From Proteromonas lacertae (taxonomy: Eukaryota), in NCBI GenBank assembly GCA_002245135.1, contig NGBS01001220.1, positions 1-39,557 of the forward strand: 39,557 bases of DNA. Direction: 5' to 3'. Under the pieces are notes generated by a model. The model saw nothing but the letters and a program-made list of their open reading frames with translations, had not been told where the DNA came from and made no database searches. Each line of letters starts with the position of its first letter. Position 1 is the stretch's first letter. Shown here piece after piece: positions 12,001 through 34,429 of this stretch. The position numbers and the translations under genes were made by a program.

Positions 12001-12507
12001 TAAATGATGAAAATGAATTAGATAATAATAATAATATAAAAGAAAAGAAGATCGAAATGGAGAAATTGAAGATAATTGATATGAGATTCGTAGGTCATGA
12101 TAGCCATAAAGAAGATAAAGATATAATAGGAAGTGCTCGTAGTTTTATAGTTTATCGATTAGAAATGATAAGTGAGAATAATGTTTATAGTTTTAATACA
12201 TTTAAAAGATGGAGTCAATTACAATGGTTATTCGATAAACTTCATAGTTTAGATAAAAATATAAAAATTCCCAAAGAAAATCTATTTAAAGCGTTTGGAA
12301 CAAGTATGAAATATATATATTATAATTATATTCTGAATAGAAGTTCATTTAAAATCGAAAGATGATAGTGGTTTAATAAAAGAAAGATCTGAAGCGATAA
12401 TTCATAATATAGAAGTAATAAAGAAGAATAAATGGTTAGAGAGTAATACTATGTTGATAAATTTCTTGAAAGAAGATGCAATAAATGTGAAAAGAATAAG
12501 TGAATGA
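1..12507 (+). CDS. VPS13: VPS13-family bridge-like lipid transfer protein (5' end outside window; multi-exon; a few probable sequencing frameshifts)
   Basis: Chorein_N-type N-terminus (LNLSIW..GDVELKNL|SIKPDALKDLNLPIQVKAGFLGKLVLKVPWKN; QVQINRIHIRFED), WWKFAY motif, FEPLIEKW, VAB-type repeats (PKYWVWNRS, YAWKEP) and the VPS13 C-terminal signature (GSLDVIGNPFGLVKNIGIGFRDLFYEP; GVVGLAARPVAG). Short GT-AG introns (e.g. 45-79 and near 936-968, 1705, 1905, 2325, 2647, 3250, 10891, 11430, 12305) join the ORF fragments. Stop TGA at 12505-12507. Single-base deletions near 18, 461 and 3904. Confidence 0.95.
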
Positions 12508-12567: not shown

Positions 12568-15500
12568 TTATAAATTGTCATTTACTTTTTTCAACATTTC
12601 TTCAAATTCTATCCTTTGAAATTCATCTTCAACACTGGATATATATTTACTTGCTTCATTCAAATATTTCTTTGATTCTTCATAATCTTTCTATTTTCAT
12701 TATAATCACATTCATATATATACAATATCAAAATAACATTCACCCATTTCATTATTACATCTAAATCTCTCATAATCACTTTTAGCTAATTTTAATGCAT
12801 TATTATATTGTTCTTTAGCTTCATCAATAGTACCTAGCTTAAATAAATACTTACACACATATATATAATATAGGCATCTATCTTCATCTGATTCAGCAAA
12901 TTCAATTGCCGAAGTAATACAATTAAATGAGTTTTCATTATCATTCTATTAAAATAACAATTGAAATATATACAAAACCCAAATAACAATCACCTAAATT
13001 CATAAAACACATATATTTTTGTTTATTTGTTGATGATACTTCTAATGCAGATTTATAATAATCTAATGATTTTTCATACTCTTTCTATAATAAAAGTAAA
13101 TTAGACACTACTATACAATATTAAAATAGCATAAACCAATATTTAAATTGCAACTATAATTCTCTTCATCTGTTGATGCAAGATTTAATGCACATTCAAA
13201 ATAATCTTTTGCTTTTTCATATTCCCTCTATAATAATAATAATAATAATTGTTTATAATCATACAATCTTCAAATCACAAACACCTATTCTAAAGTTGCA
13301 TAAGTAAATCTTTTCATTTGTGGAAGCAAAGTCTAAAGCAGATTCTAAATATTCAATTGCTTTTTTAATTTTTCTCTATATTATCATTTATATCAAGTAT
13401 AATACTGCTAGTTCATAAAAATTACTGATAGTGAAACAACATTCGTATTTTTCTTCATTTTTAGAAGTGAATTGTAATGCAGACTTAAAATGTTCTAAGG
13501 AATCATTAAAATCACCCTATAATATGAATATTTTTATGGTTATACTAGATTGCCATAACACAATGCTATATGGTTGTTACATAAATATTTCATTCTGTTA
13601 ATATATTGCAAAGATTCTTCATCTAAAGGGTTAAGATGTTCTAATTCATAGAGATTCTCAAATGCAGTTTTAAAATATTTTATAGCTTGTTCATATTCTT
13701 CAACATTTGCACTACACAAACCAATATTAAAGTAACAATCACATTTTTCTCTATTTGTAAATGCAAAAACTAATGCTGATTCAAAACGCTCTTTAGATTC
13801 TTTAAATTGATTCTATACATTCATTTATACACAAAATTTATACTAGATTTCGATAACTTTCACCAATTTTGAATTTGCATTTAAATTTTTCATTATTTGT
13901 AGATGAATCATTTAGAGCAGTTACAAGGTATTCTATTGATCTTATATAATTCTTCTATAAAGAAATAATAGATAATATATTTACAGAGTTAAAACTTTCA
14001 CTTCCTCTTGTATAATTTTCAATGTATTTTTTTACTTTTGTAAGTTTTTCAATATATTCTTCATCTTCTATTGAGTATAAGAACTTGATTATTGAGTTGA
14101 TTGTATCCAGGTTGTTATGATCAATTAAATCAATCAGTATATGTAAATCATTTAGATATATTTCTTTGTTCTTTTTCAATTCTACTGCATCATCTTCACC
14201 ATATGGAGGATTCTTTTGATTTATTGAAGGAAAGAATTTCTATGATTTAAATAAATAAAGATATTTCTATACAATTGTTAATTCAATTTTCCAATACGAT
14301 GAGAATTCTTTATTGCTCATTTTAATGATTTCTTTTAATGTTTTACCTTCTATAAAACCACCTCCTAAATAAAAATTCAGAATTTTAGAATCACAAAAAG
14401 AAGTATCTTCACTTGTTCCATTATTCACTGAAGTTGAAGGTAATGTTGAATCATTATTAATATAAGCATTAACTTCTTTAAACATATCTTCAAATAATTT
14501 CTTATCATATGGATCTTCTACACCTGAAATATAAATATTTGCTTCATTCAAATGTTTCTTGGATTCTTCATAATCTTTCTATTCTCATTATAATAATCAT
14601 CATATTATATACAACATCAAAATAGCATTTACCCATTATATATTCACAACTAAATTTCTGATAATCAGTTTTGGCTAATTTTAATGCTTTCTTATATTGA
14701 TCTATAGCTTGATTATTAATACCAAGTTTAAATAAACATTCACACATAAACATAAAACATATAAGTCTATCTTCATCAGATTCAGCAAATTCTAATCCTG
14801 AGATATAAAATCCCAAAGCTTCTTTATATTCTTTCTATAATTATTATAACTGCATAAATTATACAAGATTCATATTAATACAACCTAAGTTTATACTACA
14901 TTTGTGTTTATTTTTTTTTATTATTGCAAATTTTGACGCAGATTTATAATACTCTATTGCTTTATCTAATTCATTCTATTGTATTATAAATAACAAATAA
15001 TCATACTAGATCTGCATAACATACACCTATACCAAACACACAATTGAATTTTTCTTCATCTGATTCAGCAAATTTTAATGCATCATTCAAATGTTCAATT
15101 GATTTTATATTTTCTTTCTATAAATCAATTTATATCAACTATTATACTTTCGATAAAAAATATCTACTTATATTAAGATAACATTCATATTTCTGTTTCT
15201 TTGTTGAGGAGAATTCTAATGCAGAATTAAAAGAATCAATTGCTCTGTCATATTCAAGCTATAACATTAATATCATCATAATTATACTATTGCAGAATAA
15301 CATTTACCTATAGTAGAATTACACTCATATTTATCTTCATTTGTTGAGGCTAATTCTAAGGCAGAATTTAAATAGCCAAATGCTCTGTCATATTCAAGCT
15401 ATAATATAAACAACTGTTAAAATCAATACTAAATATGTATAACACACACCAAGAGTGTAATTACTTTTGCATTTCTTGTTATTCATTTTAGATTTTGATG

Positions 15501-17354
15501 ATTCTGTTAAACTACAATCATTTTCTATTGAAGATATTATATCTAATGTAGTTTCTAAATAACTTATCGAATGTCTGTATTCTTTCTATCACATTAAATG
15601 AATAATTAGTTATACAAGAGCAGCATAACATAAACCAATATAAAAGTTACAATCACATTTTTCTTCTTTTGATGATGCAAAAACTAATGCAGATTCACAA
15701 TGCTTTAATGATTCTCTGAAGTAATTCTATCACATAAAATTCTTAAGAAACAATACAATTTCAAAATATGATTTACCTAGATTGTAATTACATTGGTGTA
15801 ATTCTTCATCTGTATTAGCATTCTTTAAAGCACATAATGAATATTCTATTGATTCTTTATTATCATTCTATGTAATAAATAATTCATAATAGTTATACAA
15901 CTTTATTATATAATTCTGCTAAATTAAAACAACATTTGAATTTATCTAATTTTGTATTAGCATTCTCTAAAGCAGATTTAAAACATTCTATTGCTTTTTC
16001 ATATTTTTGCTATAAAACAAGATAAACATCCTATATACATAATCAAAATATTTTGTAGCTTCTTCAAAATTTTCTTTGAATGTTTTTTCTTTTGTAAGTT
16101 TCTCCATATATTCTTTATCTTCTATTGAGTCTAAGAAGTTAATCATTGAGTTGAGTAGATCATCGTTGTTGTGATCTATTAAATTTATTAAGATATGTAA
16201 ATCATTTAGAAAATTGTCTTTATTCTTAATTAATTTTTTGGCGTCTTCTTTAGTATATGAAGGATTATCTTGACCTATTGAAGGAAAGAACATCTATTAT
16301 ATAAATGTATTTATGTTTTTATACAAATTTAAATTCATCTTTCCAGTAGGATGAAAATTCTTCTTGTTTTATATCACAATATTCTTTTAATGTTTTACCT
16401 TCTATATTACCTTTTCCTAAATAAAACGATAAAATTAATGAATAATATGATGAAAAACTAGCTAATTCGTTTGAAGCTTCAGCTATTGATGGTGAAGAAA
16501 ATGATGAATCACTTATAGAAGGAACAGGAGGAGTGTTTGATATTTTGTTTATTTCTTCTTCTATCTCATCAAGTTTTATTCTTTCATTCATATTTTTCTC
16601 TAACATTCGCTTTATTAATGCTTCTATTTGAGGAATTTTAACTCCACTTACTCTCACAAAATCTAATTCTGTTCTTAAAAATAAATTATTTATTATCTCC
16701 CTTTTGTTCTTTCCTTCAAAAGCCATTCTTAATGTATAAATCTCATATAAAATACATCCTAAAGCAAATATATCACTGGCTGATGAATAGGGACGAGGGA
16801 TTCTATTGGTTATTTCAGGAGCCATGTAACTATAAGTTCCTTTCAATACATCATCAGTACTATCAATTCCAGTTGCTAATCCAAAATCACTTATTATTAA
16901 TTCATTATGATCTCCTACTAAAATATTTCCTGGTTTTAAATCTCGATGAATTATTCCTTTACTATGAATATACTTTAAACCATTTATTAAATCTTTCATA
17001 TACATCATCATTTCCTAAAGATCATTAATATATCATCATATATACATTTACTGAGAAATCTTCTTTTTTATCTTTCTTTTCATCTATCAGCTTCCATAAA
17101 TCACCATTTTTTAAATACTCTGTGTATATATAGCATATATTTTCTTCTTCAATTATTACACTATCTTTTAGTATCAAGATATTTCGATCTCTCAACTCTT
17201 CTAAAATCTTTATTTCATTTTTTATTGTCTCTAAATATCCTGATTCTACTTTAATCTCTTTTCTAGCTAGCTTTAAACCATTATGTCTTACTAAACACAC
17301 TTTGCTAAAACCACCTTCTCCAATTGTTTCATATTTTTCATCATTTATTTTCAT
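12568..17354 (-). CDS. Array gene A: Ser/Thr kinase (NEK-like) + two tandem [OGFr-like + TPR-like array] modules
   Basis: Exon 1 17354-17046 (GEGGFSKV, ARK); intron 17045-17015; exon 2 17014-16325 (HRDLKPGN, DFG, APE, DIFALG, then FYLGKGNIEGKTLKE); intron 16324-16294; FFPS exon; eight single-repeat exons plus a double exon. The cap exon at 14578 reads on into a second linker/OGFr-like unit and a second repeat array, ending ...MLKKVNDNL* at 12568. Confidence 0.85.
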
Positions 17355-17416
17355 TATGCTCTTAAATCAAACTGTTATTTCTATGAGTTAAAAAACAGAA
17401 ATTTTATGATTTGAAG

Positions 17417-17435
17417 TCAAACCTAAGAATCAAGC
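17417..17435 (-). promoter_or_regulatory. Candidate upstream element, paired G(C/T)TTGA on the sense strand, before gene A
   Basis: + strand tcaaacctaagaatcaagc, ~63 nt upstream of the ATG; homologous elements lie upstream of all six array genes. Confidence 0.55.
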
Positions 17436-17609
17436 TTATATAACTCATATTCTTTTATATAGATGTAAACATAATTACTTTGGTATAATCAACTTTGATA
17501 GGTTAAATAAAATATCAAATTATTAAATACTGTTTGAATTAACCTAATAATAATAATAATAATAATAATAATAAGATTTATGATATTATTTAACAATAAA
17601 ATTGTGTTT

Positions 17610-20294
17610 TTATTTATAAGCATTTACTTTTTTCAACATTTCTTCAAATTCTTTTCTTTCTTCATCATCTTCTACACTTGATATGTATTTACTTGCTTCA
17701 TTCAAATATTTCTTTGAAACTTCATATTCATTCTATTTTCATTAAAATAATCTTTTATACATTTTCAAAATAACATTTACCCAGTGTTTTATAACAAGTA
17801 AACTTTTCATAATCACTTTTAGCTAATTCTAATGCATTATTATAATGATCTTTTGCTTCATCAATAGCACCAATATTAAATAGACATTGGCAAAGATATA
17901 TATAATATAAACATCTATCTTCATCTGTTTCTGCATATTTAAAAGAATCTATAAAGAATTCCATTGATTTTTCATATTCTTTCTATAATATTTATAGTTA
18001 AAACAATTATACAAGTTTCAAATAATCATCACCTATGTTATTATAACAAGTAAATCTTTCCTTGTTTGAAGATGCAAGTTTCAAGGCTAAGTTATAATAA
18101 GAGATTGATTTTGTATAATCTTTCTATAATGTTTTATTATTGAACAATCATACTATATTTTTACAACAAACACCTAATAAAAAATAACAATCATATTTCT
18201 CTTCATTTGTTGAAGAATTTTCTAAAGCAGATAAATAAAACTGTATTGAGTTTTGGTATTGTTTCTATACATATACAATAACAAATACAATATAATAATA
18301 ACTATTCCCAATATAACATTTATGATTGTATTTATCATTATTAGAGACAGCATCTAAGGTATATTTTAAATAATCAATTGCTTTTTCATATTCTTTCTAT
18401 AGCAAATATAATATATTGACTTACCAAAGAATATAAATTTAGACCAATGCATGCTTTGCACAAATATTTTTGTTCATTTGTTTTGGCATTATCTAAAGCT
18501 AATTTATAAAATTTTGTTGAATTATCATATTCTGCCTATTATATATATAATTTCAACATTAATACAAGTTGTATATAACTTTTGCCTATTTTTGTATGAC
18601 ATTCATATTCTTGTTCATTTGTATTGGCATTATTTGAGGCAGATTTATAAAATGGAATAGATTCTTCTATTTTGCCCTATTCATTTATATATTATGATAA
18701 TTATACGACATTCACAAAACAATCACCTATATTTATACTGCAAGTATATTTTCTTTCATTTGTTTTGGCATTTTCTAAAGCTATTTTATAATGTTTGATT
18801 GAATTATCATATTCTGCCTATTAAACTTGTTATTGCAAATATTATACAAGTTGAGCATAACACCAACCAATTCTGTTTTCACAGTCATATTTTTCTTCAT
18901 CTGAAGAGACATTTTCCAATGCAGATTTTAAGCAATTAATTGATTTTCCACATTGTTTCTATAAGATTCATTACTTTATATGATAATACAAGTTGAACAT
19001 AACACTTACTAATATTTAGTCTACAGGTATATTTTTGTTCATTTGTTGAAGAATTTTCTAAAGCAGATTTAAAACATTCTATTGAATTATTATATTCTGC
19101 CTATTATATATATAATTTCAACATTAATACAAGCTGAAAATAACAAGTACCAATTTTCATTTCACATTCATATTTTCTTTCATTTGTTTTGGCATTTTCT
19201 AAAGCTATTTTATAATGTTCGATTGAGTTTTCATAGTCATTCTATTCAATATAAAATACTACAATTATACCTCTCTTTTATAAAATGAACCTAAGGTGTA
19301 ATAACCAATGAATTTATCTTCATCAGTTTCCGTATAATCTAATGCATTTAGTAAATACCCTTTGGATATTTCAAGTTCGTTCTACTCATTTATAATTATA
19401 AATAATTATACAAGATTCAAATAACACTTTCCTATATTTGAAATACATTTAAATTTTTCTTTCTTTGAAGTAGCATAATCTAAGGCAGTTTCTAAAATAT
19501 CTCTGGATTTTTCAAATTGCCTCTATACATTAGAAATATCCTTTACTCATACTCTATGAAAATAACATTCACCTATTTTATAATTACATTCACATTTTTC
19601 TTCATCTGTAAAGGAATTTTCTAGTGCTCTAGACATATATTTTATTGAGTTTTCATAGTCATTCTATTCAATTCATAGTTATATTTATCATACAACTATC
19701 AAATAGCATAAACCAATTTTGTAACTACTTTCATACTTTTCTTTATTTGTCAAAGAATTCTCTAAAGCTGTTATATAACATTTTATCGATGGCTCATATT
19801 CATGCTATAATAATACATTAAATATTCTTCTTATACCAAATTAAAATATCTATTTCCTTCATTATAATTATCTTCATATTCCATGTGTTTTCTTTCTTTG
19901 TTGAGTAGTTGTATATATTCTGTATCTTCTATTGTTTCTAAAAAATCTATTATATTGTCGAGATTATCTTTACTTTTGTCAATTAAATCAATCAATCTAT
20001 GTAAATCATTTAGATAAACATCTTTGTTATTCTTTAGCTCAGTTGAATCATCTTCAGTATAAGGAGGATTATTTTGTTTATGTGATGGAAAGAATCTCTA
20101 ATCATATTAACTACTAGATTTATATATACAATTACTAAATTATCATTCCAATATGAAGAAAACTCTTCTTTATCCATTTCAATAATCTCTTTTAAAGTCT
20201 TTCCATTAATAGCTGCACCTTTTAAATAAAATAACAGAATTACAGAATTACAATATAATAAATTTCCTGATTCTTCACTTGTAGTAGTAGTGGC

Positions 20295-20329
<35 letters not shown>

Positions 20330-21178
20330 CAGTTGATGCAGAAGGATATGATGTATCACTAATATAAGGAACAGGAGGAGCTGTGTTTGGTAATTTGTTT
20401 ATTTCTTCTATTTTGTCTTTTTCTTCATCAATTGTGTCTATCATATCTTCAATTTTATCAAGGTTTATTCTTTCACTTTCATCTTTTTTTAACATTTGCT
20501 TTATTAACTCTTCAATTTGAAAAAATCTTTTTCCACTTATTCTATCAAAATCTAATTCTTTCCCTGACTGTAACTCATTCTCTATTTCTTTTTCATTTCT
20601 TTCTTTAAATATAACATTCAATGTGTATATTTCATAAAATATACATCCAAGAGAAAATATATCACCAAATTCGTTACATCTAGAAGGTAAATTTAAGATA
20701 GAATCTTTAGAAATGTAATTTATCATTAATTCATTTCTTTTTCCTACTAAGATATTCTCTAGTGTCAATTCTTTATGATTTAATTCTATACTGTGAATAT
20801 ATTTTAATCCATTTACTAGATCCATCATACACTCAACTATTTCCTATAACAATTATACATATATTACTTCCAGTATACCTCTAAAGAGAAATCTTCACTC
20901 ATTTCTTTTCTTTTACTTATTACATCACATAAATTTCCCTTTTCAACGTAATCTGTGAATATATAACAAACATTTTCACTCTTAACAATCTCATAGTCTT
21001 TCATTCTCAAAATATACCTATCTTTCACAGTGATTAATTTTTCACATTCTCGTTTTACTAATTCTATGGATTTTGGAGTTATATTAAAGCCTTTCCTTGC
21101 CATTATCACTCCATTGCGATTTACTTTACATAATTTCTTCACATCGCCTTTTGCAACATTAGAAATAGCATTGTTCAT
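17610..21178 (-). CDS. Array gene B: pseudokinase + poly-Thr linker + OGFr-like + TPR-like array (13 single-repeat exons + double exon + cap)
   Basis: Kinase fold is recognisable (MARK, YIFTDYVEKGNL, GLKYIHS, ENILV, DIFSLGCIFYEI), but the Gly loop is lost, HRD is HKE, DFG is replaced by NYI and the activation segment/APE is deleted. ~141-nt exon+intron periodicity over 19805-18013. Stop TAA at 17610. Confidence 0.85.
18530..19240. repeat. Internal four-exon-period duplication in the TPR array of gene B (also in D)
   Basis: tctgcctattatatatataatttcaacattaatacaag, which includes a whole intron, occurs at 18531 and 19096 (offset 565, about 4 x 141). tttcatttgttttggcattttctaaagctattttataatgtt recurs at ~18754 and ~19178. 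Confidence 0.85.
20280..20330 (-). repeat. (ACT)n coding microsatellite giving the poly-Thr linker of gene B (copy at ~27613-27663 in D)
   Basis: gtagtagtag run on the + strand; translates as STATTTTTTTTTTTATTTTS. Confidence 0.9.
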
Positions 21179-21242
21179 CTTATAAGTGCTTTAATTGCAA
21201 AATATACCTCTCTTAAATGAAAAAGAAAATTAAAAAAAAGAT

Positions 21243-21260
21243 TCAAACCTGTAATCAAGC
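21243..21260 (-). promoter_or_regulatory. Same candidate element before gene B
   Basis: tcaaacctgtaatcaagc, ~65 nt upstream of the ATG; flanks are unrelated to those of gene A. Confidence 0.55.
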
Positions 21261-21343
21261 CTAGTTTTTCTTTTAAGAATAAATATTACTTAAAATAAAA
21301 AAGTATGAATAAGCTAGTTTGTATATATATTATGATAAATCTT

Positions 21344-23473
21344 CTATATTCTTATAATCTCTCCAAATTCTATTTTAAAACTATCTTCAACTATATTCCA
21401 CATATATTTACTCGATTCGTTTAGGTACTTCTTAAATTCTTCATATTTGCCCTATTTTATCAAATGCAAAATATATACCCTTTCAAAGAAACAGTTACCT
21501 ATTATAAAGTTACACCTAAATCTTTCATGGTCATTATTGGCTAATTTTAAAGATTCATTATATAGATAATTCGATTCTTCTACTGGATTGATGTTAAACA
21601 TATATTTACACATATTAATGTAATATAAACATTTGTCTTCATCTGATTCTGCAAATTCAAATGCTAAAATAAGATTATTCATTGCCTTTTCATCATTTTT
21701 CTATTATAATTTCATATTAAAATAATAATAAAACATACCATATTAAAATAACAATCACTTATACTCATATTGCATGTAAATTTTTCTCCATTTGTAGAAG
21801 CGCATTGAAAAGCATAATTATAATTTTCAATTGCTTGTTGGTAATGTTTCTATTATATATTATAAAAAACAATTATACCAAATTCCAATAACTATTGCCA
21901 ATATTTATATAGCAGGTATATTTTTCTTGATCTATTAAGGTGTTACCTAATACTGATTTATTATATTCTATTGAATCTTCAAGTTCATTCTAAATATTAA
22001 TTATATTAATAATATACACTATCCATACAACCACCATTTATACCAAAACTACATATATATATATCTTTATCTGTAGAATTGGCTTTTTCAAAGACATCTT
22101 TATAATATTCTATTGGTTTTTCAGTTTCATTCTATCATATAATAATAACATTACTTATCATAATAACAATACAGTAATAAAACACTTACCAAGATATACA
22201 ATACTGACACTTTTCTTTTCAATTTCAAATGCATTTTCTAAGGCAGATTTATAGTATTTTATTGAGTTTTCATATTGTTCCTAGTTAATATAGAAGTATT
22301 ATACAATATTCCAATAACATTCACCTATAATTGTGTTACATATGTATTTTTCTTCATTCTTAGAAGCATTCTCTAAGGCTGATAAAAAATAGTGTATTGA
22401 TTCTTGATAGTTATTCTATAATAATAACTGAAATAACTATACATTTATGAAATAACACATTCCTAAGCTATAAAAACAATAATAATTTTCTAATGACATT
22501 ATCATATTTACTTCTGCTTGTTGCTCATGAGTATATTCATTAATTTCAAAACTATTATGATCACTTTCTAAAGCAGATTTATAATAATTTATTGACCTTT
22601 CATATTCCATCTATTGATTAAAATAATAAGCATACCTTTTTGAAATATATATTACCCAAAAAATATTTGCTAATGAATATCTGAAAATTAATTTTCGTAA
22701 GATCCAATCCATTCAGAAAATATATTTTGGATTTTTCATACTCATTCTGTTACATCATAAATATAAAGATATAATACATTAATAAAATAATTAAATCCTA
22801 TTCGAATAAAACAGTAATATTTCTCTTTCTTTGTACAACAAGATTCCAATGCCATAGAAAAATATTCATCAGCTTTATCATTATCTTTCTACAATATAAT
22901 TAATACTACATATATACAAGATTCATAAAACACAATCCAATATGGTAATTACAGTCATATCTTTCTATTATTGTAGTATTAAATTCAAATGCAGATTTAT
23001 AAAACTGCATTGATTTATCATAGTCTTTCTATTATTTACATAACTATTCAACAATACAAGATTGAAATAACATTCTGCAATTCTGAAATGACATTCATAT
23101 TCCTCTTCTTTTGATGAAGTGTTGTTTAATGCAATTGTAAAACACTCTATAGAGGATTTATAATTCATCTATTAATAACAATATTATCATATATATTTAC
23201 ATACAAAATATAAATTCTTTTTCCCTTCCTCATAATTATCTTTATACTTTTTTTCTTTATTCAGCTTTTCTACATATTCATAATCTTCAATTGATTTTAA
23301 AAAGTTTAATATTTTGTTGAGATTATCTTTACCATGATCTATCAAGTCAATTACCCTATATAAATCATTTATAAAGCTATCTTTTCTGTTTTCCAATTTC
23401 ACTGCATATTCTTTAGTATATTCACTGCCTTTTTCATCCACTGAAGGAAATAACAACTATTTTTATGATTATA

Positions 23474-23510
<37 letters not shown>

Positions 23511-24544
23511 CCAAATAATCATCTTTCCAGAATGAAGAAAATTCTTCTAAATTCATTTTTCTAATTTCTTTTAGTGTTTTACCTTCTATATTCCCACCTC
23601 CTAAATAGAAATTGAGAATAAAAGAATCACAGTTAGAAGAAAAACTAGCTTCTTCACTTGATGTATTATCTATTGATGGTAATGGTAATGTTGAATTATG
23701 GCTAACATAGGCAATAGGAGGAGTATTTAACATTTGGATTACTTCTTTTTCTATTTCATCAATTTTTATTCTTTTATTGACATCTTTCTCTAACATTTGC
23801 TTTATTAATTCTTCTATTTGCTGGAATCTTATTCCACTTAACCTTCTAAAGCTCATTTTTTCATTATATTTTATCCTATTCTTTATAACTTCATTATTTT
23901 CTCCATCAAAAGCCATTCTTAATGTATATATTTCATAAAATACACAACCTAAAGCAAATATATCACTGGCTGATGAATAGGGACGAGGGATTCTATTGGT
24001 TATTTCAGGAGCCATGTAACTATAAGTTCCTTTCAATACATCATCATTATTTTCATTTTCAGTTGCTAATCCAAAATCACTTATTATTAATTCATTATGA
24101 TCTCCTACTAAGATATTTCCTGGCTTTAAATCTCGATGAATTATTCCTTTGTTATGAATATACTTTAAACCATTTATTAAATCTTTCATGTACATCATCA
24201 TTTCCTAAATATCATTGATATATCATCATATATACATTTACTGAGAAATCTTCTTTTTTATCTTTCTTTTCATCTATCAGCTTCCATAAATCACCATTTT
24301 TTAAATACTCTGTGTATATATAGCATATATTTTCTTCTTCAATTATTACACTATCTTTTAGTATCAAGATATTTCGATCTCTCAACTCTTCTAAAATCTT
24401 TATTTCATTTTTTATTGTCTCTAAATATCCTGATTCTACTTTAATCTCTTTTCTAGCTAGCTTTAAACCATTATGTCTTACTAAACACACTTTGCTAAAA
24501 CCACCTTCTCCAATTGTTTCATATTTTTCATCATTTATTTTCAT
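21344..24544 (-). CDS. Array gene C: chimeric Ser/Thr kinase + OGFr-like + TPR-like array (10 single-repeat exons + double exon + cap)
   Basis: Exon 1 matches gene A exon 1. HRDLKPGN/DFG/APE are intact. From ASDIFALGC onward it matches gene E. Repeat exons span 23168-21738. Stop TAG at 21344. Confidence 0.85.
23457..23508 (-). repeat. Intron lengthened to 52 nt by a (TA)n microsatellite (gene C; the copy in E is one unit shorter)
   Basis: (TA)n run follows the GT donor; the C/E offset changes from 7333 to 7331 across it. Confidence 0.8.
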
Positions 24545-24606
24545 TATGCTCTTAAATCAAATTGTTATTTCTATGAGTTAAAAAACAGAAATTTTATGAT
24601 TTGAAG

Positions 24607-24625
24607 TCAAACCTAAGAATCAAGC
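24607..24625 (-). promoter_or_regulatory. Same candidate element before gene C
   Basis: tcaaacctaagaatcaagc, a duplicate of the gene A upstream region. Confidence 0.5.
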
Positions 24626-24738
24626 TTATATAACTCATATTCTTTTATATAGATGTAAACATAATTACTTTGGTATGACCAAATTTAATAGGATAAATAA
24701 AATATCAAATTATTAAATACTGTTTGAATTACCCTACC

Positions 24739-24770
<32 letters not shown>

Positions 24771-24805
24771 GATTTATGATATTATTTAACAATAAAATTG
24801 TGTTT

Positions 24806-27627
24806 TTATTTATAAGCATTTACTTTTTTCAACATTTCTTCAAATTCCTTTCTTTCTAATTCATCTTCTACAATGATATACTTCATTGCTTCATTCAAGT
24901 ATTTCTTTGAATCTTCATATTCATTCTATTTTCATTAAAATAATCTTTTATACATTTTCAAAATAACATTTACCCAGTGTTTTATAACAAGTAAACTTTT
25001 CATAATCACTTTTAGCTAATCCTAATGCATTATTATATTGATTTATAGCTTCTTCAATAGTACCAATATTAAATAAACATTCACACATATTAATATAATA
25101 CAAACATCTATCTTCATCTGTTTCTGCATATTTAAAAGAATCTATAAAGAATTCCATTGATTTTTCATAATCTTTCTATAATATTTATAGTTAAACAGTT
25201 ATACCAATTTCAAATAATCATCACCTATGTTATTATAACAAGTAAATCTTTCCTTGTTTGAAGATGCAAGTTTCAAGGCTAAGTTATAATAAGAGATTGA
25301 TTTTGTATAATCTTTCTATAATGTTTTATTATTGAACAATCATACTATATTTTTACAACAAACACCTAATAAAAAATAACAATCATATTTCTCTTCATTT
25401 GTTGAAGAATTTTCTAAAGCAGATAAATAAAACTGTATTGAGTTTTGGTATTGTTTCTATACATATACAATAACAAATACAATATAATAATAACTATTCC
25501 CAATATAACATTTATGATTGTATTTATCATTATTAGAGACAGCATCTAAGGTATATTTTAAATAATCAATTGCTTTTTCATATTCTTTCTATAGCAAATA
25601 TAATATATTGACTTACCAAAGAATATAAATTTAGACCAATGCATGCTTTGCACAAATATTTTTGTTCATTTGTTTTGGCATTATCTAAAGCTAATTTATA
25701 AAATTTTGTTGAATTATCATATTCTGCCTATTATATATATAATTTCAACATTAATACAAGTTGTATATAACTTTTGCCTATTTTTGTATGACATTCATAT
25801 TCTTGTTCATTTGTATCGGCATTATTTGAGGCAGATTTATAAAATGGAATAGATTCTTCTATTTTGCCCTATTCATTTATATATTATGATAATTATACGA
25901 CATTCACAAAACAATCACCTATATTTATACTGCAAGTATATTTTCTTTCATTTGTTTTGGCATTTTCTAAAGCTATTTTATAATGTTCGATTGAATTATC
26001 ATATTCTGCCTATTAAACTTGTTATTGCAAATATTATACAAGTTGAGCATAACACCAACCAATTCTGTTTTCACAGTCATATTTTTCTTCATCTGAAGAG
26101 ACATTTTCCAATGCAGATTTTAAGCAATTAATTGATTTTCCACATTGTTTCTATAAGATTCATTACTTTATATGATAATACAAGTTGAACATAACACTTA
26201 CTAATATTTAGTCTACAGGTATATTTTTGTTCATTTGTTGAAGAATTTTCTAAAGCAGATTTAAAACATTCTATTGAATTATTATATTCTGCCTATTATA
26301 TATATAATTTCAACATTAATACAAGCTGAAAATAACAAGTACCAATTTTCATTTCACATTCATATTCTTGTTCATTTGTATTGGCATTATTTGAGGCAGA
26401 TTTATAAAATGGAATAGATTCTTCTATTTTGCCCTATTCATTTATATATTACGATAATTATACGACATTCACAAAACTATCACCTATATTTATACTGCAA
26501 GTATATTTTCTTTCATTTGTTTTGGCATTTTCTAAAGCTATTTTATAATGTTCGATTGAGTTTTCATAGTCATTCTATTCAATATAAAATACTACAATTA
26601 TACCTCTCTTTTATAAAATGAACCTAAGGTGTAATAACCAATGAATTTATCTTCATCAGTTTCCGTATAATCTAATGCATTTAGTAAATACCCTTTGGAT
26701 ATTTCAAGTTCGTTCTACTCATTTATAATTATAAATAATTATACAAGATTCAAATAACACTTTCCTATATTTGAAATACATTTAAATTTTTCTTTCTTTG
26801 AAGTAGCATAATCTAAGGCAGTTTCTAAAATATCTCTGGATTTTTCAAATTGCCTCTATACATTAGAAATATCCTTTACTCATACTCTATGAAAATAACA
26901 TTCACCTATTTTATAATTACATTCACATTTTTCTTCATCTGTAAAGGAATTTTCTAGTGCTCTAGACATATATTTTATTGAGTTTTCATAGTCATTCTAT
27001 TCAATTCATAGTTATATTTATCATACAACTATCAAATAGCATAAACCAATTTTGTAACTACTTTCATACTTTTCTTTATTTGTCAAAGAATTCTCTAAAG
27101 CTGTTATATAACATTTTATCGATGGCTCATATTCATGCTATAATAATACATTAAATATTCTTCTTATACCAAATTAAAATATCTATTTCCTTCATTATAA
27201 TTATCTTCATATTCCATGTGTTTTCTTTCTTTGTTGAGTAGTTGTATATATTCTGTATCTTCTATTGTTTCTAAAAAATCTATTATATTGTCGAGATTAT
27301 CTTTACTTTTGTCAATTAAATCAATCAATCTATGTAAATCATTTAGATAAACATCTTTGTTATTCTTTAGCTCAGTTGAATCATCTTCAGTATAAGGAGG
27401 ATTATTTTGTTTATGTGATGGAAAGAATCTCTAATCATATTAACTACTAGATTTATATATACAATTACTAAATTATCATTCCAATATGAAGAAAACTCTT
27501 CTTTATCCATTTCAATAATCTCTTTTAAAGTCTTTCCATTAATAGCTGCACCTTTTAAATAAAATAACAGAATTACAGAATTACAATATAATAAATTTCC
27601 TGATTCTTCACTTGTAGTAGTAGTGGC

Positions 27628-27662
<35 letters not shown>

Positions 27663-28511
27663 CAGTTGATGCAGAAGGATATGATGTATCACTAATATAA
27701 GGAACAGGAGGAGCTGTGTTTGGTAATTTGTTTATTTCTTCTATTTTGTCTTTTTCTTCATCAATTGTGTCTATCATATCTTCAATTTTATCAAGGTTTA
27801 TTCTTTCACTTTCATCTTTTTTTAACATTTGCTTTATTAACTCTTCAATTTGAAAAAATCTTTTTCCACTTATTCTATCAAAATCTAATTCTTTCCCTGA
27901 CTGTAACTCATTCTCTATTTCTTTTTCATTTCTTTCTTTAAATATAACATTCAATGTGTATATTTCATAAAATATACATCCAAGAGAAAATATATCACCA
28001 AATTCGTTACATCTAGAAGGTAAATTTAAGATAGAATCTTTAGAAATGTAATTTATCATTAATTCATTTCTTTTTCCTACTAAGATATTCTCTAGTGTCA
28101 ATTCTTTATGATTTAATTCTATACTGTGAATATATTTTAATCCATTTACTAGATCCATCATACACTCAACTATTTCCTATAACAATTATACATATATTAC
28201 TTCCAGTATACCTCTAAAGAGAAATCTTCACTCATTTCTTTTCTTTTACTTATTACATCACATAAATTTCCCTTTTCAACGTAATCTGTGAATATATAAC
28301 AAACATTTTCACTCTTAACAATCTCATAGTCTTTCATTCTCAAAATATACCTATCTTTCACAGTGATTAATTTTTCACATTCTCGTTTTACTAATTCTAT
28401 GGATTTTGGAGTTATATTAAAGCCTTTCCTTGCCATTATCACTCCATTGCGATTTACTTTACATAATTTCTTCACATCGCCTTTTGCAACATTAGAAATA
28501 GCATTGTTCAT
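24806..28511 (-). CDS. Array gene D: pseudokinase + OGFr-like + TPR-like array; near-copy of gene B with one extra repeat exon
   Basis: ORFs 28197-28511 and 27367-28161 are identical to 20864-21178 and 20034-20828. The offset to gene B shifts from 7192 to 7333 at ~26365-26505. Stop TAA at 24806. Confidence 0.85.
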
Positions 28512-28575
28512 CTTATAAGTGCTTTAATTGCAAAATATACCTCTCTTAAATGAAAAAGAAAATTAAAAAAAAGAT

Positions 28576-28593
28576 TCAAACCTGTAATCAAGC
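28576..28593 (-). promoter_or_regulatory. Same candidate element before gene D
   Basis: tcaaacctgtaatcaagc, a duplicate of the gene B upstream region. Confidence 0.5.
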
Positions 28594-28676
28594 CTAGTTT
28601 TTCTTTTAAGAATAAATATTACTTAAAATAAAAAAGTATGAATAAGCTAGTTTGTATATATATTATGATAAATCTT

Positions 28677-30806
28677 CTATATTCTTATAATCTCTCCAAA
28701 TTCTATTTTAAAACTATCTTCAACTATATTCCACATATATTTACTCGATTCGTTTAGGTACTTCTTAAATTCTTCATATTTGCCCTATTTTATCAAATGC
28801 AAAATATATACCCTTTCAAAGAAACAGTTACCTATTATAAAGTTACACCTAAATCTTTCATGGTCATTATTGGCTAATTTTAAAGATTCATTATATAGAT
28901 AATTCGATTCTTCTACTGGATTGATGTTAAACATATATTTACACATATTAATGTAATATAAACATTTGTCTTCATCTGATTCTGCAAATTCAAATGCTAA
29001 AATAAGATTATTCATTGCCTTTTCATCATTTTTCTATTATAATTTCATATTAAAATAATAATAAAACATACCATATTAAAATAACAATCACTTATACTCA
29101 TATTGCATGTAAATTTTTCTCCATTTGTAGAAGCGCATTGAAAAGCATAATTATAATTTTCAATTGCTTGTTGGTAATGTTTCTATTATATATTATAAAA
29201 AACAATTATACCAAATTCCAATAACTATTGCCAATATTTATATAGCAGGTATATTTTTCTTGATCTATTAAGGTGTTACCTAATACTGATTTATTATATT
29301 CTATTGAATCTTCAAGTTCATTCTAAATATTAATTATATTAATAATATACACTATCCATACAACCACCATTTATACCAAAACTACATATATATATATCTT
29401 TATCTGTAGAATTGGCTTTTTCAAAGACATCTTTATAATATTCTATTGGTTTTTCAGTTTCATTCTATCATATAATAATAACATTACTTATCATAATAAC
29501 AATACAGTAATAAAACACTTACCAAGATATACAATACTGACACTTTTCTTTTCAATTTCAAATGCATTTTCTAAGGCAGATTTATAGTATTTTATTGAGT
29601 TTTCATATTGTTCCTAGTTAATATAGAAGTATTATACAATATTCCAATAACATTCACCTATAATTGTGTTACATATGTATTTTTCTTCATTCTTAGAAGC
29701 ATTCTCTAAGGCTGATAAAAAATAGTGTATTGATTCTTGATAGTTATTCTATAATAATAACTGAAATAACTATACATTTATGAAATAACACATTCCTAAG
29801 CTATAAAAACAATAATAATTTTCTAATGACATTATCATATTTACTTCTGCTTGTTGCTCATGAGTATATTCATTAATTTCAAAACTATTATGATCACTTT
29901 CTAAAGCAGATTTATAATAATTTATTGACCTTTCATATTCCATCTATTGATTAAAATAATAAGCATACCTTTTTGAAATATATATTACCCAAAAAATATT
30001 TGCTAATGAATATCTGAAAATTAATTTTCGTAAGATCCAATCCATTCAGAAAATATATTTTGGATTTTTCATACTCATTCTGTTACATCATAAATATAAA
30101 GATATAATACATTAATAAAATAATTAAATCCTATTCGAATAAAACAGTAATATTTCTCTTTCTTTGTACAACAAGATTCCAATGCCATAGAAAAATATTC
30201 ATCAGCTTTATCATTATCTTTCTACAATATAATTAATACTACATATATACAAGATTCATAAAACACAATCCAATATGGTAATTACAGTCATATCTTTCTA
30301 TTATTGTAGTATTAAATTCAAATGCAGATTTATAAAACTGCATTGATTTATCATAGTCTTTCTATTATTTACATAACTATTCAACAATACAAGATTGAAA
30401 TAACATTCTGCAATTCTGAAATGACATTCATATTCCTCTTCTTTTGATGAAGTGTTGTTTAATGCAATTGTAAAACACTCTATAGAGGATTTATAATTCA
30501 TCTATTAATAACAATATTATCATATATATTTACATACAAAATATAAATTCTTTTTCCCTTCCTCATAATTATCTTTATACTTTTTTTCTTTATTCAGCTT
30601 TTCTACATATTCATAATCTTCAATTGATTTTAAAAAGTTTAATATTTTGTTGAGATTATCTTTACCATGATCTATCAAGTCAATTACCCTATATAAATCA
30701 TTTATAAAGCTATCTTTTCTGTTTTCCAATTTCACTGCATATTCTTTAGTATATTCACTGCCTTTTTCATCCACTGAAGGAAATAACAACTATTTTTATG
30801 ATTATA

Positions 30807-30841
<35 letters not shown>

Positions 30842-31871
30842 CCAAATAATCATCTTTCCAGAATGAAGAAAATTCTTCTAAATTCATTTTTCTAATTTCT
30901 TTTAGTGTTTTACCTTCTATATTCCCACCTCCTAAATAGAAATTGAGAATAAAAGAATCACAGTTAGAAGAAAAACTAGCTTCTTCACTTGATGTATTAT
31001 CTATTGATGGTAATGGTAATGTTGAATTATGGCTAACATAGGCAATAGGAGGAGTATTTAACATTTGGATTACTTCTTTTTCTATTTCATCAATTTTTAT
31101 TCTTTTATTGACATCTTTCTCTAACATTTGCTTTATTAATTCTTCTATTTGCTGGAATCTTATTCCACTTAACCTTCTAAAGCTCATTTTTTCATTATAT
31201 TTTATCCTATTCTTTATAACTTCATTATTTTCTCCATCAAAAGCCATTCTTAATGTATATATTTCATAAAATACACAACCTAAAGCAAATATATCACTTG
31301 CTGTTGAATATGGACGAGCTCCTTCATCCCATAACTCAGGAGCTATAAAATTTGGAGTTCCGTTTAGTAAATAATCAGTACTATCAATTCCAGTTGCTAA
31401 TCCAAAATCACTTATTATTAATTTTTTATGATTTCCAACTAAAATATTTCCTGGTTTTAAATCTCGATGAATTATCCCTTTACTGTGAATATATTTCAAT
31501 CCACTAACTAAATCTTCCATAAAATTAATTATTTCCTATATAATTTATTCATATTACTTCATTTATACTGTAAATGTAAAATCTTCATTTTTACTGATCT
31601 TCTCATCTATTAATTTCCCTAAATCTCCTTTCTTTACATATTCTGTGTATATATAACGCATATTTCCATCAATCTCATAATTTTTCATTAATAACACATT
31701 TGGATGATCCAGCTGCTGTAGAATACTAATTTCATTTTTAATAGCATCTTCCAATTGTTCTGTTATTTTTATTTCTTTTCTAGCTAGCTTTAAACCATTA
31801 TGTTCAACTAAACACACTTTGCTAAAAGCACCTTTTCCAATTATTTCATATTTTTCATCATTTGTTTCCAT
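28677..31871 (-). CDS. Array gene E: Ser/Thr kinase + OGFr-like + TPR-like array
   Basis: Exon 1 METNDEKYEIIGKGAFSKV...HPNVL; exon 2 HRDLKPGN, DFG, GTPNFIAPE. The 3' part is essentially identical to gene C at offset 7333. Stop TAG at 28677. Confidence 0.85.
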
Positions 31872-31932
31872 TATATTTTCAAACCTAATTGTTATTGTTA
31901 TCAGCTAAAAATTTAATTAAAAATTTTGATAT

Positions 31933-31951
31933 TCAAACCTAAGAATCAAAC
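31933..31951 (-). promoter_or_regulatory. Same candidate element before gene E
   Basis: tcaaacctaagaatcaaac, ~62 nt upstream of the ATG. Confidence 0.55.
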
Positions 31952-32071
31952 CTGCATTATTTACTCATTCATAATTATATGTGGTAATATTTAGACACTG
32001 CTTGACAAATCAAAAAAATCATTATAAAGCAACAAAAAACATTGATAGAAGCAAAGAGAATAATTATTTTT

Positions 32072-34383
32072 TTATTTATCATTCAATTTTTTAAATATTT
32101 CTTCTAATTCTCTATTTGACTCTTCATTTACACTTGATTTATATTTATATGCTTCACATAAATACTTCTTGGCATTTTCTATATCATTCTATTTTCAAAA
32201 TAATAATAATAATCATTATAGTATATATACTCTTTCAAAAAGAAGTTTACCCAATTTATAACTACATATAAATCTTTCAACATCTGTATTAACTGATTCT
32301 ATTGCTCTATTATAATTATCTACTGCATCATCTATCATACCAATACTATACAAACAAGCACACATATACATATTGCATAAGCACTTATCCTCATTCAATT
32401 CTACATATTCTAATGCTAAAAGTAGGTATTCCATAGATTTTTCAATATTATTCTATTATATTAACAATTCAAATAATCATACAAGTTTCAAATAACTTGC
32501 ACCTAAGTAGAAACAACATTCGTATTTTACTCTATTTAAGCATGGTAGTTCTAAAGCCCATTTGAAATGTTCTATTGATTTTTCATACTCTTCCTATTTA
32601 ATTATATAACCATTTAAAAACTTACCATATCATAATAACAATAACCTTTTTTATATTCAAATATAAAACACTCATCTTTTGTAAATATATCTTTCACTCG
32701 AGATGAAAAATTTTCTATTAATTGTTTATATTCGTTCTATTTATATATATATATATATATTATTAAAAATAAATATATACTAATTTGTTGTTACATATAT
32801 CAATATTTAATTCACAATTCTGTCTTTCTTCACTTGTTGTACATTTTTCTAGTGTTGATTGTAAATATTTCATTGACATTTTATTTTCTCTCTATCATAA
32901 TATTATTCATTATATTATACAAGAAAGGAACAATAGTTAGACATAATAGCTGAATAATATGAAAGCATTTTTTGTTTCGTTGTTGTATACTTTAATCCTT
33001 CTTCTAAATATTCTGTTGATATATCATATTCTTTCTATTATAATGTCTATAATTATATGCATACTAGAACTGAATAGCAAATAGCTATATCATAATAACA
33101 AGAGCTTTTTTCTATATCTACATAAGATACTTCCAATGCAGATTTAAAATAATCAATTGCTTTTATGTAGTCTTGCTATTAATTCATAAAGTCAAATATA
33201 TATACAACACTTTCATAGCATTTACCTAAATAGTAAATACATGAACATTTTTCTACATTTGTATAGGCAAATTGTAAAGCAGTAGTCAAACATTCTATCG
33301 ATTTTTCATTCTCTTTCTATTAAAAAAAAAGTATAAGTATTAATTACTATAATCATACAAGATTGTAATAACATCTTCCAATGTTAGAGTAGCAAAGACA
33401 TTTATTTTCATTTATATAGGCAGTTTGTAATGCAACTTGATAAAACTGTATAGATACTTCATATAATCCCTATTCAAAATAATAAACAACACTTATATAT
33501 ACCATTATTAAGTAATTTTCACCAATACTAGTATTACATTGAAATCTTTCTACATCATCAGTTGCCAACTCTACAGCTTTAAGTAAAAATTCTATTGATA
33601 CTTCACATTCACCCTATCAAATTGATAAATAAATGAATATAAAATACAAGATCCATATAACAAAAGCCAATTTTGCTACTACATTCATATTTTTCTTTAT
33701 TTGTAGATGCATATGTCAATCCACGATAAAAATACTCTAATGCTTTAGCATATTGTTTCTAATTGTATAATAGTAAAAAATAGATTTACTGTAGAGAAAT
33801 AGTTATCTCCTGTATTTATTAATGATTTACATGTTTCTTGATCTGTTTGGGTAATTAATATCTTAGTATTATCATTAGGTATTTCATTTACATCATATGA
33901 AGGTTTTAAATATTCCAATTCCCTTAAGATGTTTACTGGAGGTTGTTCATATTTTTCTATAGATCTTTTCACTTCAATCAGTTTTTCAACATATTCATTA
34001 TCTTCTATAGACGATAAGAAGTTTATCATTGAATTGACTACATCTTTGTTGTTTTTATCAATCAAGTCAATTAGTTTATGCAAATCATTTAAATATTTGT
34101 CCTTGTTATTCTTTAATTCTGCTACTTCTTCATTTGTATATGACGGTTCTACTTGGTTGATTGAGGGAAAGAATATCTATTGTATAAACAAATATAATAA
34201 ATGATATACAAATACAAAATCATTTTTCCAGAATGAAGAAAAAACTTCTGGCTTTATTTCAACAATCTCTTTTAAGGTTTTGCCTTCAATTACTCCATTT
34301 CTTAAATAAAAATTGAGTACTAAAGAATTATAGTTAAGAGAATAATTAGCTAGTTCACTAGATGCAACACAAGGTGGTAACAT
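32072..34383 (-). CDS. Array gene F: kinase-less member (OGFr-like + TPR-like array)
   Basis: Starts MLPPCVASSELANY...LNFYLRNGVIEGKTLKEI. An intron precedes the IFFPS exon, then nine single-repeat exons, a double exon and a cap ending FKKLNDK* at 32072. Only ~300 nt separate it from the WDR35 stop, so no kinase exons fit upstream. Confidence 0.8.
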
Positions 34384-34410: not shown

Positions 34411-34429
34411 TCAAGCCAAAGAATCAAAC
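34411..34429 (-). promoter_or_regulatory. Same candidate element before gene F
   Basis: tcaagccaaagaatcaaac, ~28 nt upstream of the predicted ATG. Confidence 0.5.

What the first reader, a model, noticed from the sequence alone, without database searches (positions are those of the whole stretch)
12568..34383. Six-gene array of kinase/pseudokinase - OGFr-like - exon-modular TPR proteins: candidate diversifying intracellular receptor system
Seen: six co-oriented paralogs sit between two housekeeping genes. They share a signalling head (kinase, pseudokinase or none), one conserved middle domain, a variable number of highly divergent 37-aa repeats (9-14 single exons in genes B-F) and a conserved terminal double repeat plus cap. 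No signal peptide or TM segment is evident, so they are probably cytosolic. Known: tandem clusters with repeat-number variation, chimeras and one-repeat-per-exon structure typify candidate pathogen receptors such as the ROCO-LRR and NB-ARC-TPR genes of the brown alga Ectocarpus. Inference: this is an analogous sensor family that uses a Ser/Thr kinase and an OGFr-like domain in place of an NTPase. I do not recognise this architecture as described.
Basis: partly seen in the sequence, partly recalled or inferred. Interest (0 to 1): 0.9.

Follow-up and report, generated by a model that had tools for sequence, protein, structure and literature searches.

The report
Recombining kinase–TPR sensor gene array
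An unidentified microbial eukaryote carries six tandem genes that join a kinase (intact, dead or missing), a decayed 'opioid growth factor receptor'-like domain and a chain of one-exon-per-repeat TPR units, and recombination has swapped and resized these parts, so they are likely a diversifying family of ligand-gated kinases, possibly immune sensors, though no pathogen link is shown.

Summary
Six intact minus-strand genes (A-F) lie between VPS13 and WDR35; all 96 modelled introns are phase 0, and 59 exons are exactly 111 nt, one 37-residue TPR unit each. Corrections: F holds two fused modules, and D-E is a near-identical copy of B-C, so there are five distinct modules. D is an F/B chimera with its crossover inside the kinase, and E lost one repeat through an in-register crossover inside an exon. 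The middle domain is a remote OGFr_N homologue (HHalign 91-95%) that has lost the family's invariant residues. Repeat variation concentrates on the TPR ligand groove (omega 0.6-0.9 against 0.2-0.5 elsewhere), but site models show no positive selection. Unnamed relatives share the kinase-plus-middle-domain exon. Best reading: soluble kinases whose TPR groove sets ligand specificity and is remixed by unequal crossing-over. Immune function is plausible but untested; a self-targeting kinase expansion like Giardia Nek-ankyrin is a serious rival. I found no description of this domain combination; the design principle is known.

The parts
32072..34383 (-). Gene A: no kinase; OGFr-like domain (with an extra linker in exon 2), 9 single TPR exons, double-repeat exon, cap; 13 exons, 631 aa
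   Evidence: model; re-run
28677..31871 (-). Gene B: intact Ser/Thr kinase, OGFr-like domain, 10 single TPR exons, double repeat, cap; 15 exons, 915 aa
24806..28511 (-). Gene C: pseudokinase (catalytic Asp and DFG lost, about 20 residues deleted), OGFr-like domain, 14 single TPR exons with an internal block duplication (exons 8-9 about 90% identical to 12-13); 19 exons, 1055 aa
21344..24544 (-). Gene D: chimera with an F-type upstream region and kinase 5' part and a B-identical 3' part; 15 exons, 917 aa
17610..21178 (-). Gene E: near-identical copy of C, one repeat shorter (13 single TPR exons), divergent last exons; 18 exons, 1019 aa
12568..17354 (-). Gene F: intact kinase followed by two OGFr-like/TPR modules in one frame; 22 exons, 1378 aa
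14273..14578 (-). F exon 13: cap of the first TPR module runs in frame into the second OGFr-like domain (module fusion)
23948..23967 (-). Crossover interval of chimera D: 20-nt stretch shared by B, D and F in kinase subdomain IX
   Evidence: D=F at informative sites up to exon-2 position 237, D=B from 258
19131..19241 (-). E exon 8: hybrid of C exon 8 (5') and C exon 9 (3'), left by an in-register 141-nt deletion (C 26507-26367)
25208..31298 (-). Block B3'-C, identical to 18016-23967 except one (TA) slip, the 141-nt repeat deletion and two amino-acid-changing substitutions
16039..16459 (-). Example of the OGFr-like middle domain (F module 1), split by a phase-0 intron between the end of exon 2 and exon 3
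34411..34427 (-). Shared upstream element TTGATT-N3-5-GGYTTGA; one copy 28-65 nt before each start codon (also 31933, 28576, 24607, 21243, 17417); function untested
   Evidence: 6 matches, 0.06 expected; the pattern was read from these regions and two pairs are duplicates, so four independent copies
34685..38328 (-). Flank: WDR35/IFT121
1..12507 (+). Flank: VPS13 (5' end outside the window; 3' end approximate)

Best explanation
The six genes encode kinase, pseudokinase or kinase-less proteins with a degenerate OGFr_N-like domain and a variable TPR array, which unequal crossing-over has duplicated, swapped, fused and resized, and they likely work as cytosolic ligand-gated kinases whose specificity is predicted to lie in the TPR groove. 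Shown: architecture, intact frames, purifying selection on kinase and middle domain, groove-focused variation, one gene-level and one repeat-level crossover. Inferred: 9-16 repeat units per module stack into a superhelix; binding of a protein or peptide ligand in the groove brings the kinase (B, D, F) to a target or relieves autoinhibition; C/E act as scaffolds or allosteric partners and A as a kinase-less adaptor or decoy; the OGFr-like domain is a non-catalytic helical coupling unit, not an NTPase-type switch. I lean to non-self ligands (a defence role) because turnover is fast and the groove is the least constrained surface, but that step is untested.
For: Exon position minus 23 equals TPR position in Pfam alignments. 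Among 40 of 44 distinct 111-nt exons (recombinant E8 and near-duplicates E11, E12, E16 dropped; other exon lengths not included), six of the seven most variable positions are TPR 2, 5, 6, 9, 12 and 13, the HOP ligand contacts (PMC1261162, passages); 5 of 100,947 six-position sets of the 23 non-core positions match their mean entropy. Fixed-site omega: groove 0.89 (MG) or 0.61 (GY), other surface 0.48 or 0.23, core 0.23 or 0.13; groove differs from other surface at p 1e-8 or less. Middle domain omega 0.22, kinase 0.28. C9 vs C13: 5 of 6 changes fall in helix A, 3 at groove sites; D vs F: 5 of 6 changes fall in the activation loop. D chimera and E hybrid exon. Unnamed Logan proteins P0136-P0139 carry the same kinase C-lobe plus middle-domain start, ending near the same intron position; P0001-P0006 match exon 3.
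Against: No positive selection: M2a vs M1a p 0.67 (MG) and 1.0 (GY), groove omega not above 1 and below 1 under GY (p 0.006); M8 vs M7 p 0.49, vs M8a p 0.25. Groove hypervariability is a general property of TPRs, including those with self ligands. A repeat's nearest neighbour lies in its own module in 12 of 40 cases (8.1 expected), and apart from C8/C12, C9/C13, C10 and F8/F9 identities are about 0.6-0.7, so most repeats are old and recent inter-gene repeat exchange is not seen. The 6-kb duplicate differs by only two substitutions. No expression, ligand or infection data.
Confidence: 0.55

Rival explanations
1. A lineage-specific expansion of regulatory kinases whose repeats target them to the cell's own structures or substrates, like Giardia Nek-ankyrin and Protein 21.1; no defence role.
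For: Giardia has the same three head types on a variable repeat array, 71% of its Neks are inactive, turnover is rapid in one subfamily, and ankyrin deletion changed localisation (PMC3218828, passages). No positive selection here. Groove variation is generic.
Against: Recent gene-level and repeat-level crossovers and a fused double module; groove omega near 1 under MG is higher than a fixed self partner would usually allow (inference). The kinase could not be assigned to Nek: PLK2, BRAF, ASK1 and NEK1 score alike.
Confidence: 0.3
2. A recombination-prone array turning over mostly by drift; groove variation is relaxed constraint and most copies are redundant.
For: Site models are compatible with omega of 1 or less at every position; D-E is a near-exact copy of B-C.
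Against: All six frames and 96 splice pairs are intact, omega is 0.22-0.28 in middle domain and kinase, and an upstream element is kept before all six genes.
Confidence: 0.1
3. The D-E block is a false duplication: two haplotypes joined in tandem by the assembler, leaving a real array of four genes (A, B, C/E, F). This concerns part of the finding only.
For: Identity over about 6 kb including introns and a microsatellite; the contig has apparent uncorrected indels in the 5' part of WDR35, six frame switches.
Against: The junction is a 20-nt shared stretch inside two kinases that differ on both sides, and the frame stays open; D differs from F at 25 positions over the 838 nt compared upstream of the junction, including a five-residue activation-loop change. 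Even then the C/E repeat-number difference would be a real allelic polymorphism.
Confidence: 0.15

Closest known systems
Ectocarpus NB-ARC-TPR and ROCO-LRR candidate receptors (PMC3341825; passages read)
   Same: Cytosolic signalling head plus repeat sensor, one repeat per exon, clustering, local repeat duplications, variable repeat number.
   Different: NB-ARC or ROC-COR nucleotide switch there, kinase plus OGFr-like domain here; 42-aa exons there, 37-aa here; spare or inactivated exons in introns and significant site-level positive selection there, neither here (introns are 24-52 nt).
Giardia Nek-ankyrin kinases and Protein 21.1 (PMC3218828; passages read)
   Same: N-terminal kinase, pseudokinase or no kinase on a variable repeat array; no signal peptide; recent near-identical duplicates in the GL4 subfamily.
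   Different: Ankyrin rather than TPR repeats; no OGFr-like domain mentioned in the passages read; kinase here not assignable to Nek.
OGFr_N domain, Pfam PF04664
   Same: Profile-profile match over 64-103 columns, probability 91-95%, covering the N-terminal FY..G..L.EI motif, the FP turn and the C-terminal helix.
   Different: About 35 central residues deleted; the near-invariant Glu, His, Gln, Trp and both Arg residues are lost; single sequences score below decoys.
Cereal tandem kinase proteins with integrated decoy domains, e.g. wheat WTK4 (PMC13478195; abstract and outline only)
   Same: Kinase-based intracellular recognition without an NTPase; an integrated domain beside the kinase.
   Different: Tandem kinase domains in one chain and an HMA-like decoy; no TPR array in the abstract; pathogen ligand demonstrated there, none here.
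Canonical TPR domains (HOP TPR1/TPR2A; PMC1261162, passages read)
   Same: Consensus pattern and variable groove positions 2, 5, 6, 9, 12, 13; best PDB matches are consensus TPR proteins.
   Different: 37-residue period with a conserved T-N-E-E-K linker and a near-invariant Cys at TPR position 3; positions 33-34 are conserved here; each exon carries helix B of one repeat and helix A of the next.

Membership tests
TPR repeat proteins | Match to TPR profiles with small/aromatic consensus at positions 8, 11, 17, 20, 24, 27 | tested here: met
   TPR_1/TPR_2 hits E 2e-5 to 3e-3, below gathering cut-offs, on 4 of the 5 multi-repeat window exons and on 1; consensus TPR structures E 2e-9; position profile
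OGFr_N (PF04664) | Detectable homology to the family profile | tested here: met
   HHalign against 124 domains (34 Pfam scans of 31 source ORFs all confirmed PF04664): probability 91.2-94.7, pairwise E 1e-6 to 6e-8, score 41.6-50.0; best of 100 column shuffles 17.6, of 100 block shuffles 24.0. Single-sequence scores are not significant: best domain 4.5 bits, exceeded by 4 of 1806 decoys
OGFr_N (PF04664) | Invariant E..H..IQW and HN..R..R residues | tested here: not met
   HN and both Arg are conserved in 98-99% of the 124 domains, independent of how they were selected; all five modules lack the Arg pair, His, Gln and Trp
OGFr_N (PF04664) | Shared fold | tested here: inconclusive
   Only exon 3 could be folded (pLDDT 67.6, four helices) and matched nothing in BFVD; the reference OGFr_N model failed (pLDDT 41.8)
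Active Ser/Thr protein kinase | Gly loop, beta3 Lys, alphaC Glu, HRD, DFG, APE | tested here: met
   All present in B, D, F; C and E lack catalytic Asp, DFG and APE and are pseudokinases
Nek kinases (Giardia-type Nek-ankyrin) | Kinase domain closest to Nek | tested here: inconclusive
   PDB search with F exon 2: PLK2 83 bits, then BRAF, ASK1, p38delta and NEK1 at 70-74 bits; no tree with Neks was built
Nek kinases (Giardia-type Nek-ankyrin) | TALM ankyrin repeats | tested here: not met
   Repeats are TPR
NB-ARC-TPR / ROCO-LRR (STAND or ROCO receptors) | NB-ARC, NACHT or ROC-COR nucleotide-binding domain | tested here: not met
   No such Pfam hit on the large exons scanned; the models leave no room for one
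NB-ARC-TPR / ROCO-LRR (STAND or ROCO receptors) | One repeat per exon, symmetric phase | tested here: met
   96 of 96 introns phase 0; 59 exons of 111 nt
NB-ARC-TPR / ROCO-LRR (STAND or ROCO receptors) | Inactivated or inverted repeat exons in introns | tested here: not met
   Introns are 24-52 nt
NB-ARC-TPR / ROCO-LRR (STAND or ROCO receptors) | Site-level positive selection on repeats | tested here: not met
   M2a/M1a, M8/M7 and M8/M8a not significant on 40 exons of 37 codons; power is low
Pathogen receptors (any) | Binding of a non-self ligand or induction by infection | not testable with these tools
   No expression or interaction data could be obtained

The most novel reading that the evidence does not exclude
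A new class of protist intracellular immune receptor in which a dead OGFr_N enzyme fold serves as a switch or decoy (possibly for ADP-ribose-type ligands or for a viral OGFr_N target) between a kinase or pseudokinase output and a TPR sensor, and in which unequal crossing-over builds new output-sensor pairs and new grooves without any NTPase.
Probability: 0.15. Interest if true: 0.85.

Novelty: new variant of a known kind. Interest (0 to 1): 0.58.

Why it matters
Candidate immune receptors of microbial eukaryotes are almost all NTPase-based and inferred from sequence. A compact, soluble kinase-TPR family whose crossovers can be mapped to 20 nt offers natural chimeras (B, D, F; C, E) that separate sensor from output and make the ligand question directly testable. 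It also places a degenerate OGFr_N domain, a family of unknown biochemistry found in animals, bacteria and giant viruses, in a signalling chain, which would be a first handle on a non-catalytic role for that fold.

Tried and rejected
No whole genome is held, so family size is unknown. No sequencing run was listed; that is no evidence on expression, and splicing and the duplication remain unchecked by reads. Full-length relatives: none among longer proteins, only exon-sized unnamed fragments among 1.84 billion representatives (two further hits, P0007 and P0008, look like chance), none in metagenome or viral contigs or plasmids; two weak bacterial matches were used only as handles. Pfam did not hit OGFr_N on single exons; a Pfam scan or fold of the whole middle domain is left open because an intron splits it. 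PF04664 was not found in 401 genomes of one bacterial phylum. PDB and ESM Atlas searches gave nothing for the middle domain. The organism was not identified: best WDR35 relative 53% identical. ADP-ribose link for OGFr_N: one NADAR fusion in 29 long ORFs scanned of 136, and one ADP-ribosylglycohydrolase and one Sir2 among 129 flanking ORFs, 35 of which had any family; a weak hint only. E's terminal exon as a gene conversion from F: rejected, 7 vs 7 informative sites. A genome-wide phase-0 bias: rejected by the VPS13 control. No complex prediction was run, since no specific binding pair is claimed. Literature: no paper held all of protist, tandem, kinase, tetratricopeptide, exon shuffling, immune receptor; OGFr searches listed unrelated papers (listings only); one search listed one plant NLR review (listing only); one gut-protist genome paper had no occurrence of TPR, kinase, tandem or opioid in its main text (PMC12129017, passages; supplements not read, and they could list such a family). 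The library lacks most subscription journals.
Full report
Context. The window is 25% G+C eukaryotic DNA with introns of about 30 nt. No genome is held and the organism was not identified; WDR35's best relative is 53% identical. The array sits between VPS13 on the plus strand and WDR35/IFT121 on the minus strand, with intergenic gaps of 165-301 nt.

Gene structure. A splice-aware model gave six open minus-strand genes. All 96 introns are phase 0, with GTAT (91) or GTAA (5) donors; each would break the frame or add a stop if retained. A second run with a retrained codon model and no phase penalty returned the same 96, while 4 of 9 GTAT-type introns in VPS13 are phase 0, so the symmetry belongs to the array. 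Of 102 exons, 59 are 111 nt. Single-repeat exons number 9 (A), 10 (B, D), 14 (C), 13 (E) and 8 plus 6 (F); each of the seven modules ends in a 222-nt double repeat and a cap. F carries two modules: its exon 13 runs from the first cap straight into a second middle domain. No RNA evidence was available.

Heads. B, D and F keep the Gly loop, Lys, alphaC Glu, HRD, DFG and APE. C and E have lost the catalytic Asp, DFG and about 20 residues of the activation segment. A has no kinase. The kinase is not clearly of any family: PLK2, BRAF, ASK1 and NEK1 score alike. No transmembrane or signal segment is apparent.

Middle domain. Pfam missed it on single exons. I collected 138 loci with a recalled OGFr_N motif; all source ORFs scanned were PF04664 (5 of 5, 29 of 29, three shared). 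A profile of 124 distinct domains (14 short or duplicate ones dropped) scored single proteins weakly, with best domain 4.5 bits, below 4 of 1806 decoys, though the best hit fell on the middle domain in all six genes. Profile-profile comparison was clear: probability 91.2, score 41.6 with the five distinct modules, and 93.7-94.7, score 47-50 over about 100 columns with unnamed relatives added, against 17.6 and 24.0 for the best of 100 column or block shuffles (E-values are pairwise). The match also shows decay: some 35 central residues are gone, and so are the Glu, His, Gln, Trp and two Arg residues that are near-invariant in the family (the H-to-P columns are invariant by my selection; the HN..R..R columns are not). 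It is under purifying selection (omega 0.22). It is therefore OGFr-derived but unlikely to be catalytic (inference). What OGFr_N does is unknown; my neighbourhood check gave only a weak ADP-ribose hint.

Repeats. They are TPRs with a 37-residue period; each exon encodes helix B, a linker and the next helix A. In 40 of 44 distinct 111-nt exons (E8, E11, E12, E16 dropped) the most variable positions are 32, 35, 25, 36, 27, 29 and 28, that is TPR 9, 12, 2, 13, 4, 6 and 5. Six of these are the HOP ligand contacts (PMC1261162, passages); 5 of 100,947 sets of six non-core positions equal them (the core set was my choice after seeing the profile). Groove omega is 0.89 or 0.61 depending on the codon model, against 0.48 or 0.23 for other surface sites. 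Against the strong reading: no site model supports omega above 1, this pattern is generic for TPRs, and most repeats are old, with nearest neighbours at about 60-70% identity. The tests rest on 37 codons, a fixed tree and recombining sequences, so power is low.

Recombination. D matches F at informative sites to exon-2 position 237 and B from 258 on; the crossover lies in a 20-nt shared stretch of kinase subdomain IX. From there B-C and D-E are identical for about 6 kb except a (TA) slip, two amino-acid-changing substitutions and a 141-nt deletion whose ends lie at the same position of consecutive exons, making E exon 8 a hybrid repeat. Beyond 25207 the copies diverge again: D differs from F at 25 positions in 838 nt, with five of six residue changes in the activation loop. 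The simplest history (inference) is one unequal crossover between two haplotypes that differed from the end of C onward. C also has an internal two-repeat duplication, and F8/F9 are tandem duplicates. Both mappable breakpoints lie inside exons, so the engine is unequal crossing-over on a 141-nt exon-plus-intron unit; uniform phase keeps every product in frame and would permit exon skipping, which is untested. A false duplication by the assembler cannot be excluded without reads, since WDR35's 5' part shows six frame switches, but a 20-nt junction with an open frame argues against it.

Beyond this locus. Ten unnamed Logan proteins match exon 3 and four clusters match the kinase C-lobe plus middle-domain start at 45-50% identity, one with 11 near-identical members. 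They include an HKN pseudokinase and an HID non-RD kinase. The family is therefore larger than this array, but no full-length or named member was found.

Mechanism. I take these to be soluble ligand-gated kinases: the TPR groove selects a ligand, the OGFr-like unit couples it to the head, intact kinases signal, and pseudokinase and headless members act as partners or decoys, with recombination re-pairing heads and sensors (0.55; all functional steps inferred). Whether ligands are foreign is open. Ectocarpus NB-ARC-TPR genes (PMC3341825, passages) share the exon logic but have an NTPase, spare exons and positive selection. Giardia Nek-ankyrin and Protein 21.1 (PMC3218828, passages) share the three head types and rapid turnover without a known immune role (rival, 0.3). 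Cereal tandem kinases show that kinase-based recognition with an integrated domain exists (PMC13478195, abstract).

Verdict. Real, well-formed and actively recombining; the kinase-OGFr-like-TPR combination was not found in the searches named, while one-repeat-per-exon sensor arrays are known. New variant of a known kind; interest 0.58.

Noticed in passing
window 37260-37740 (WDR35 5' part): Six frame switches in tblastn matches to WDR35 homologues, at least two looking like single-base losses in short runs; uncorrected long-read errors or early decay of a flagellar gene.
   Followed up: partly
window about 360-400 (VPS13): An apparent frameshift near the start of the window.
   Followed up: no
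window 11960-12507 (+): The VPS13 frame continues past VPS13_C into a C-terminal segment that looks like a PX domain (recalled resemblance; no Pfam hit).
   Followed up: no
window 17417, 21243, 24607, 28576, 31933, 34411 (-): Shared upstream element before all six genes; in B-F it ends in AG-GTTTGA followed by an AT-rich stretch and AG, so it could be a promoter element or a 5'-UTR intron donor.
   Followed up: partly
window 38400-39557 (+): A low-complexity, Lys/Glu-rich reading frame with (GAGAAA)-type repeats divergent from WDR35.
   Followed up: no
P0136, P0137: Relatives with HKN (pseudokinase) and HID (non-RD) catalytic loops; non-RD kinases are often linked to innate immune receptors (recalled, not checked).
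   Followed up: no
L003, L008, L009; L006, L011, L017; L007:2-1084: Viral-contig OGFr_N domains fused to a ubiquitin-protease-like segment (recalled motif), to UBA, and to NADAR; two such loci lie next to DVNP genes.
   Followed up: partly
window 27620-27660 and 20290-20330: A poly-Thr linker encoded by an (ACT)n microsatellite in C and E, identical in length in both copies.
   Followed up: no
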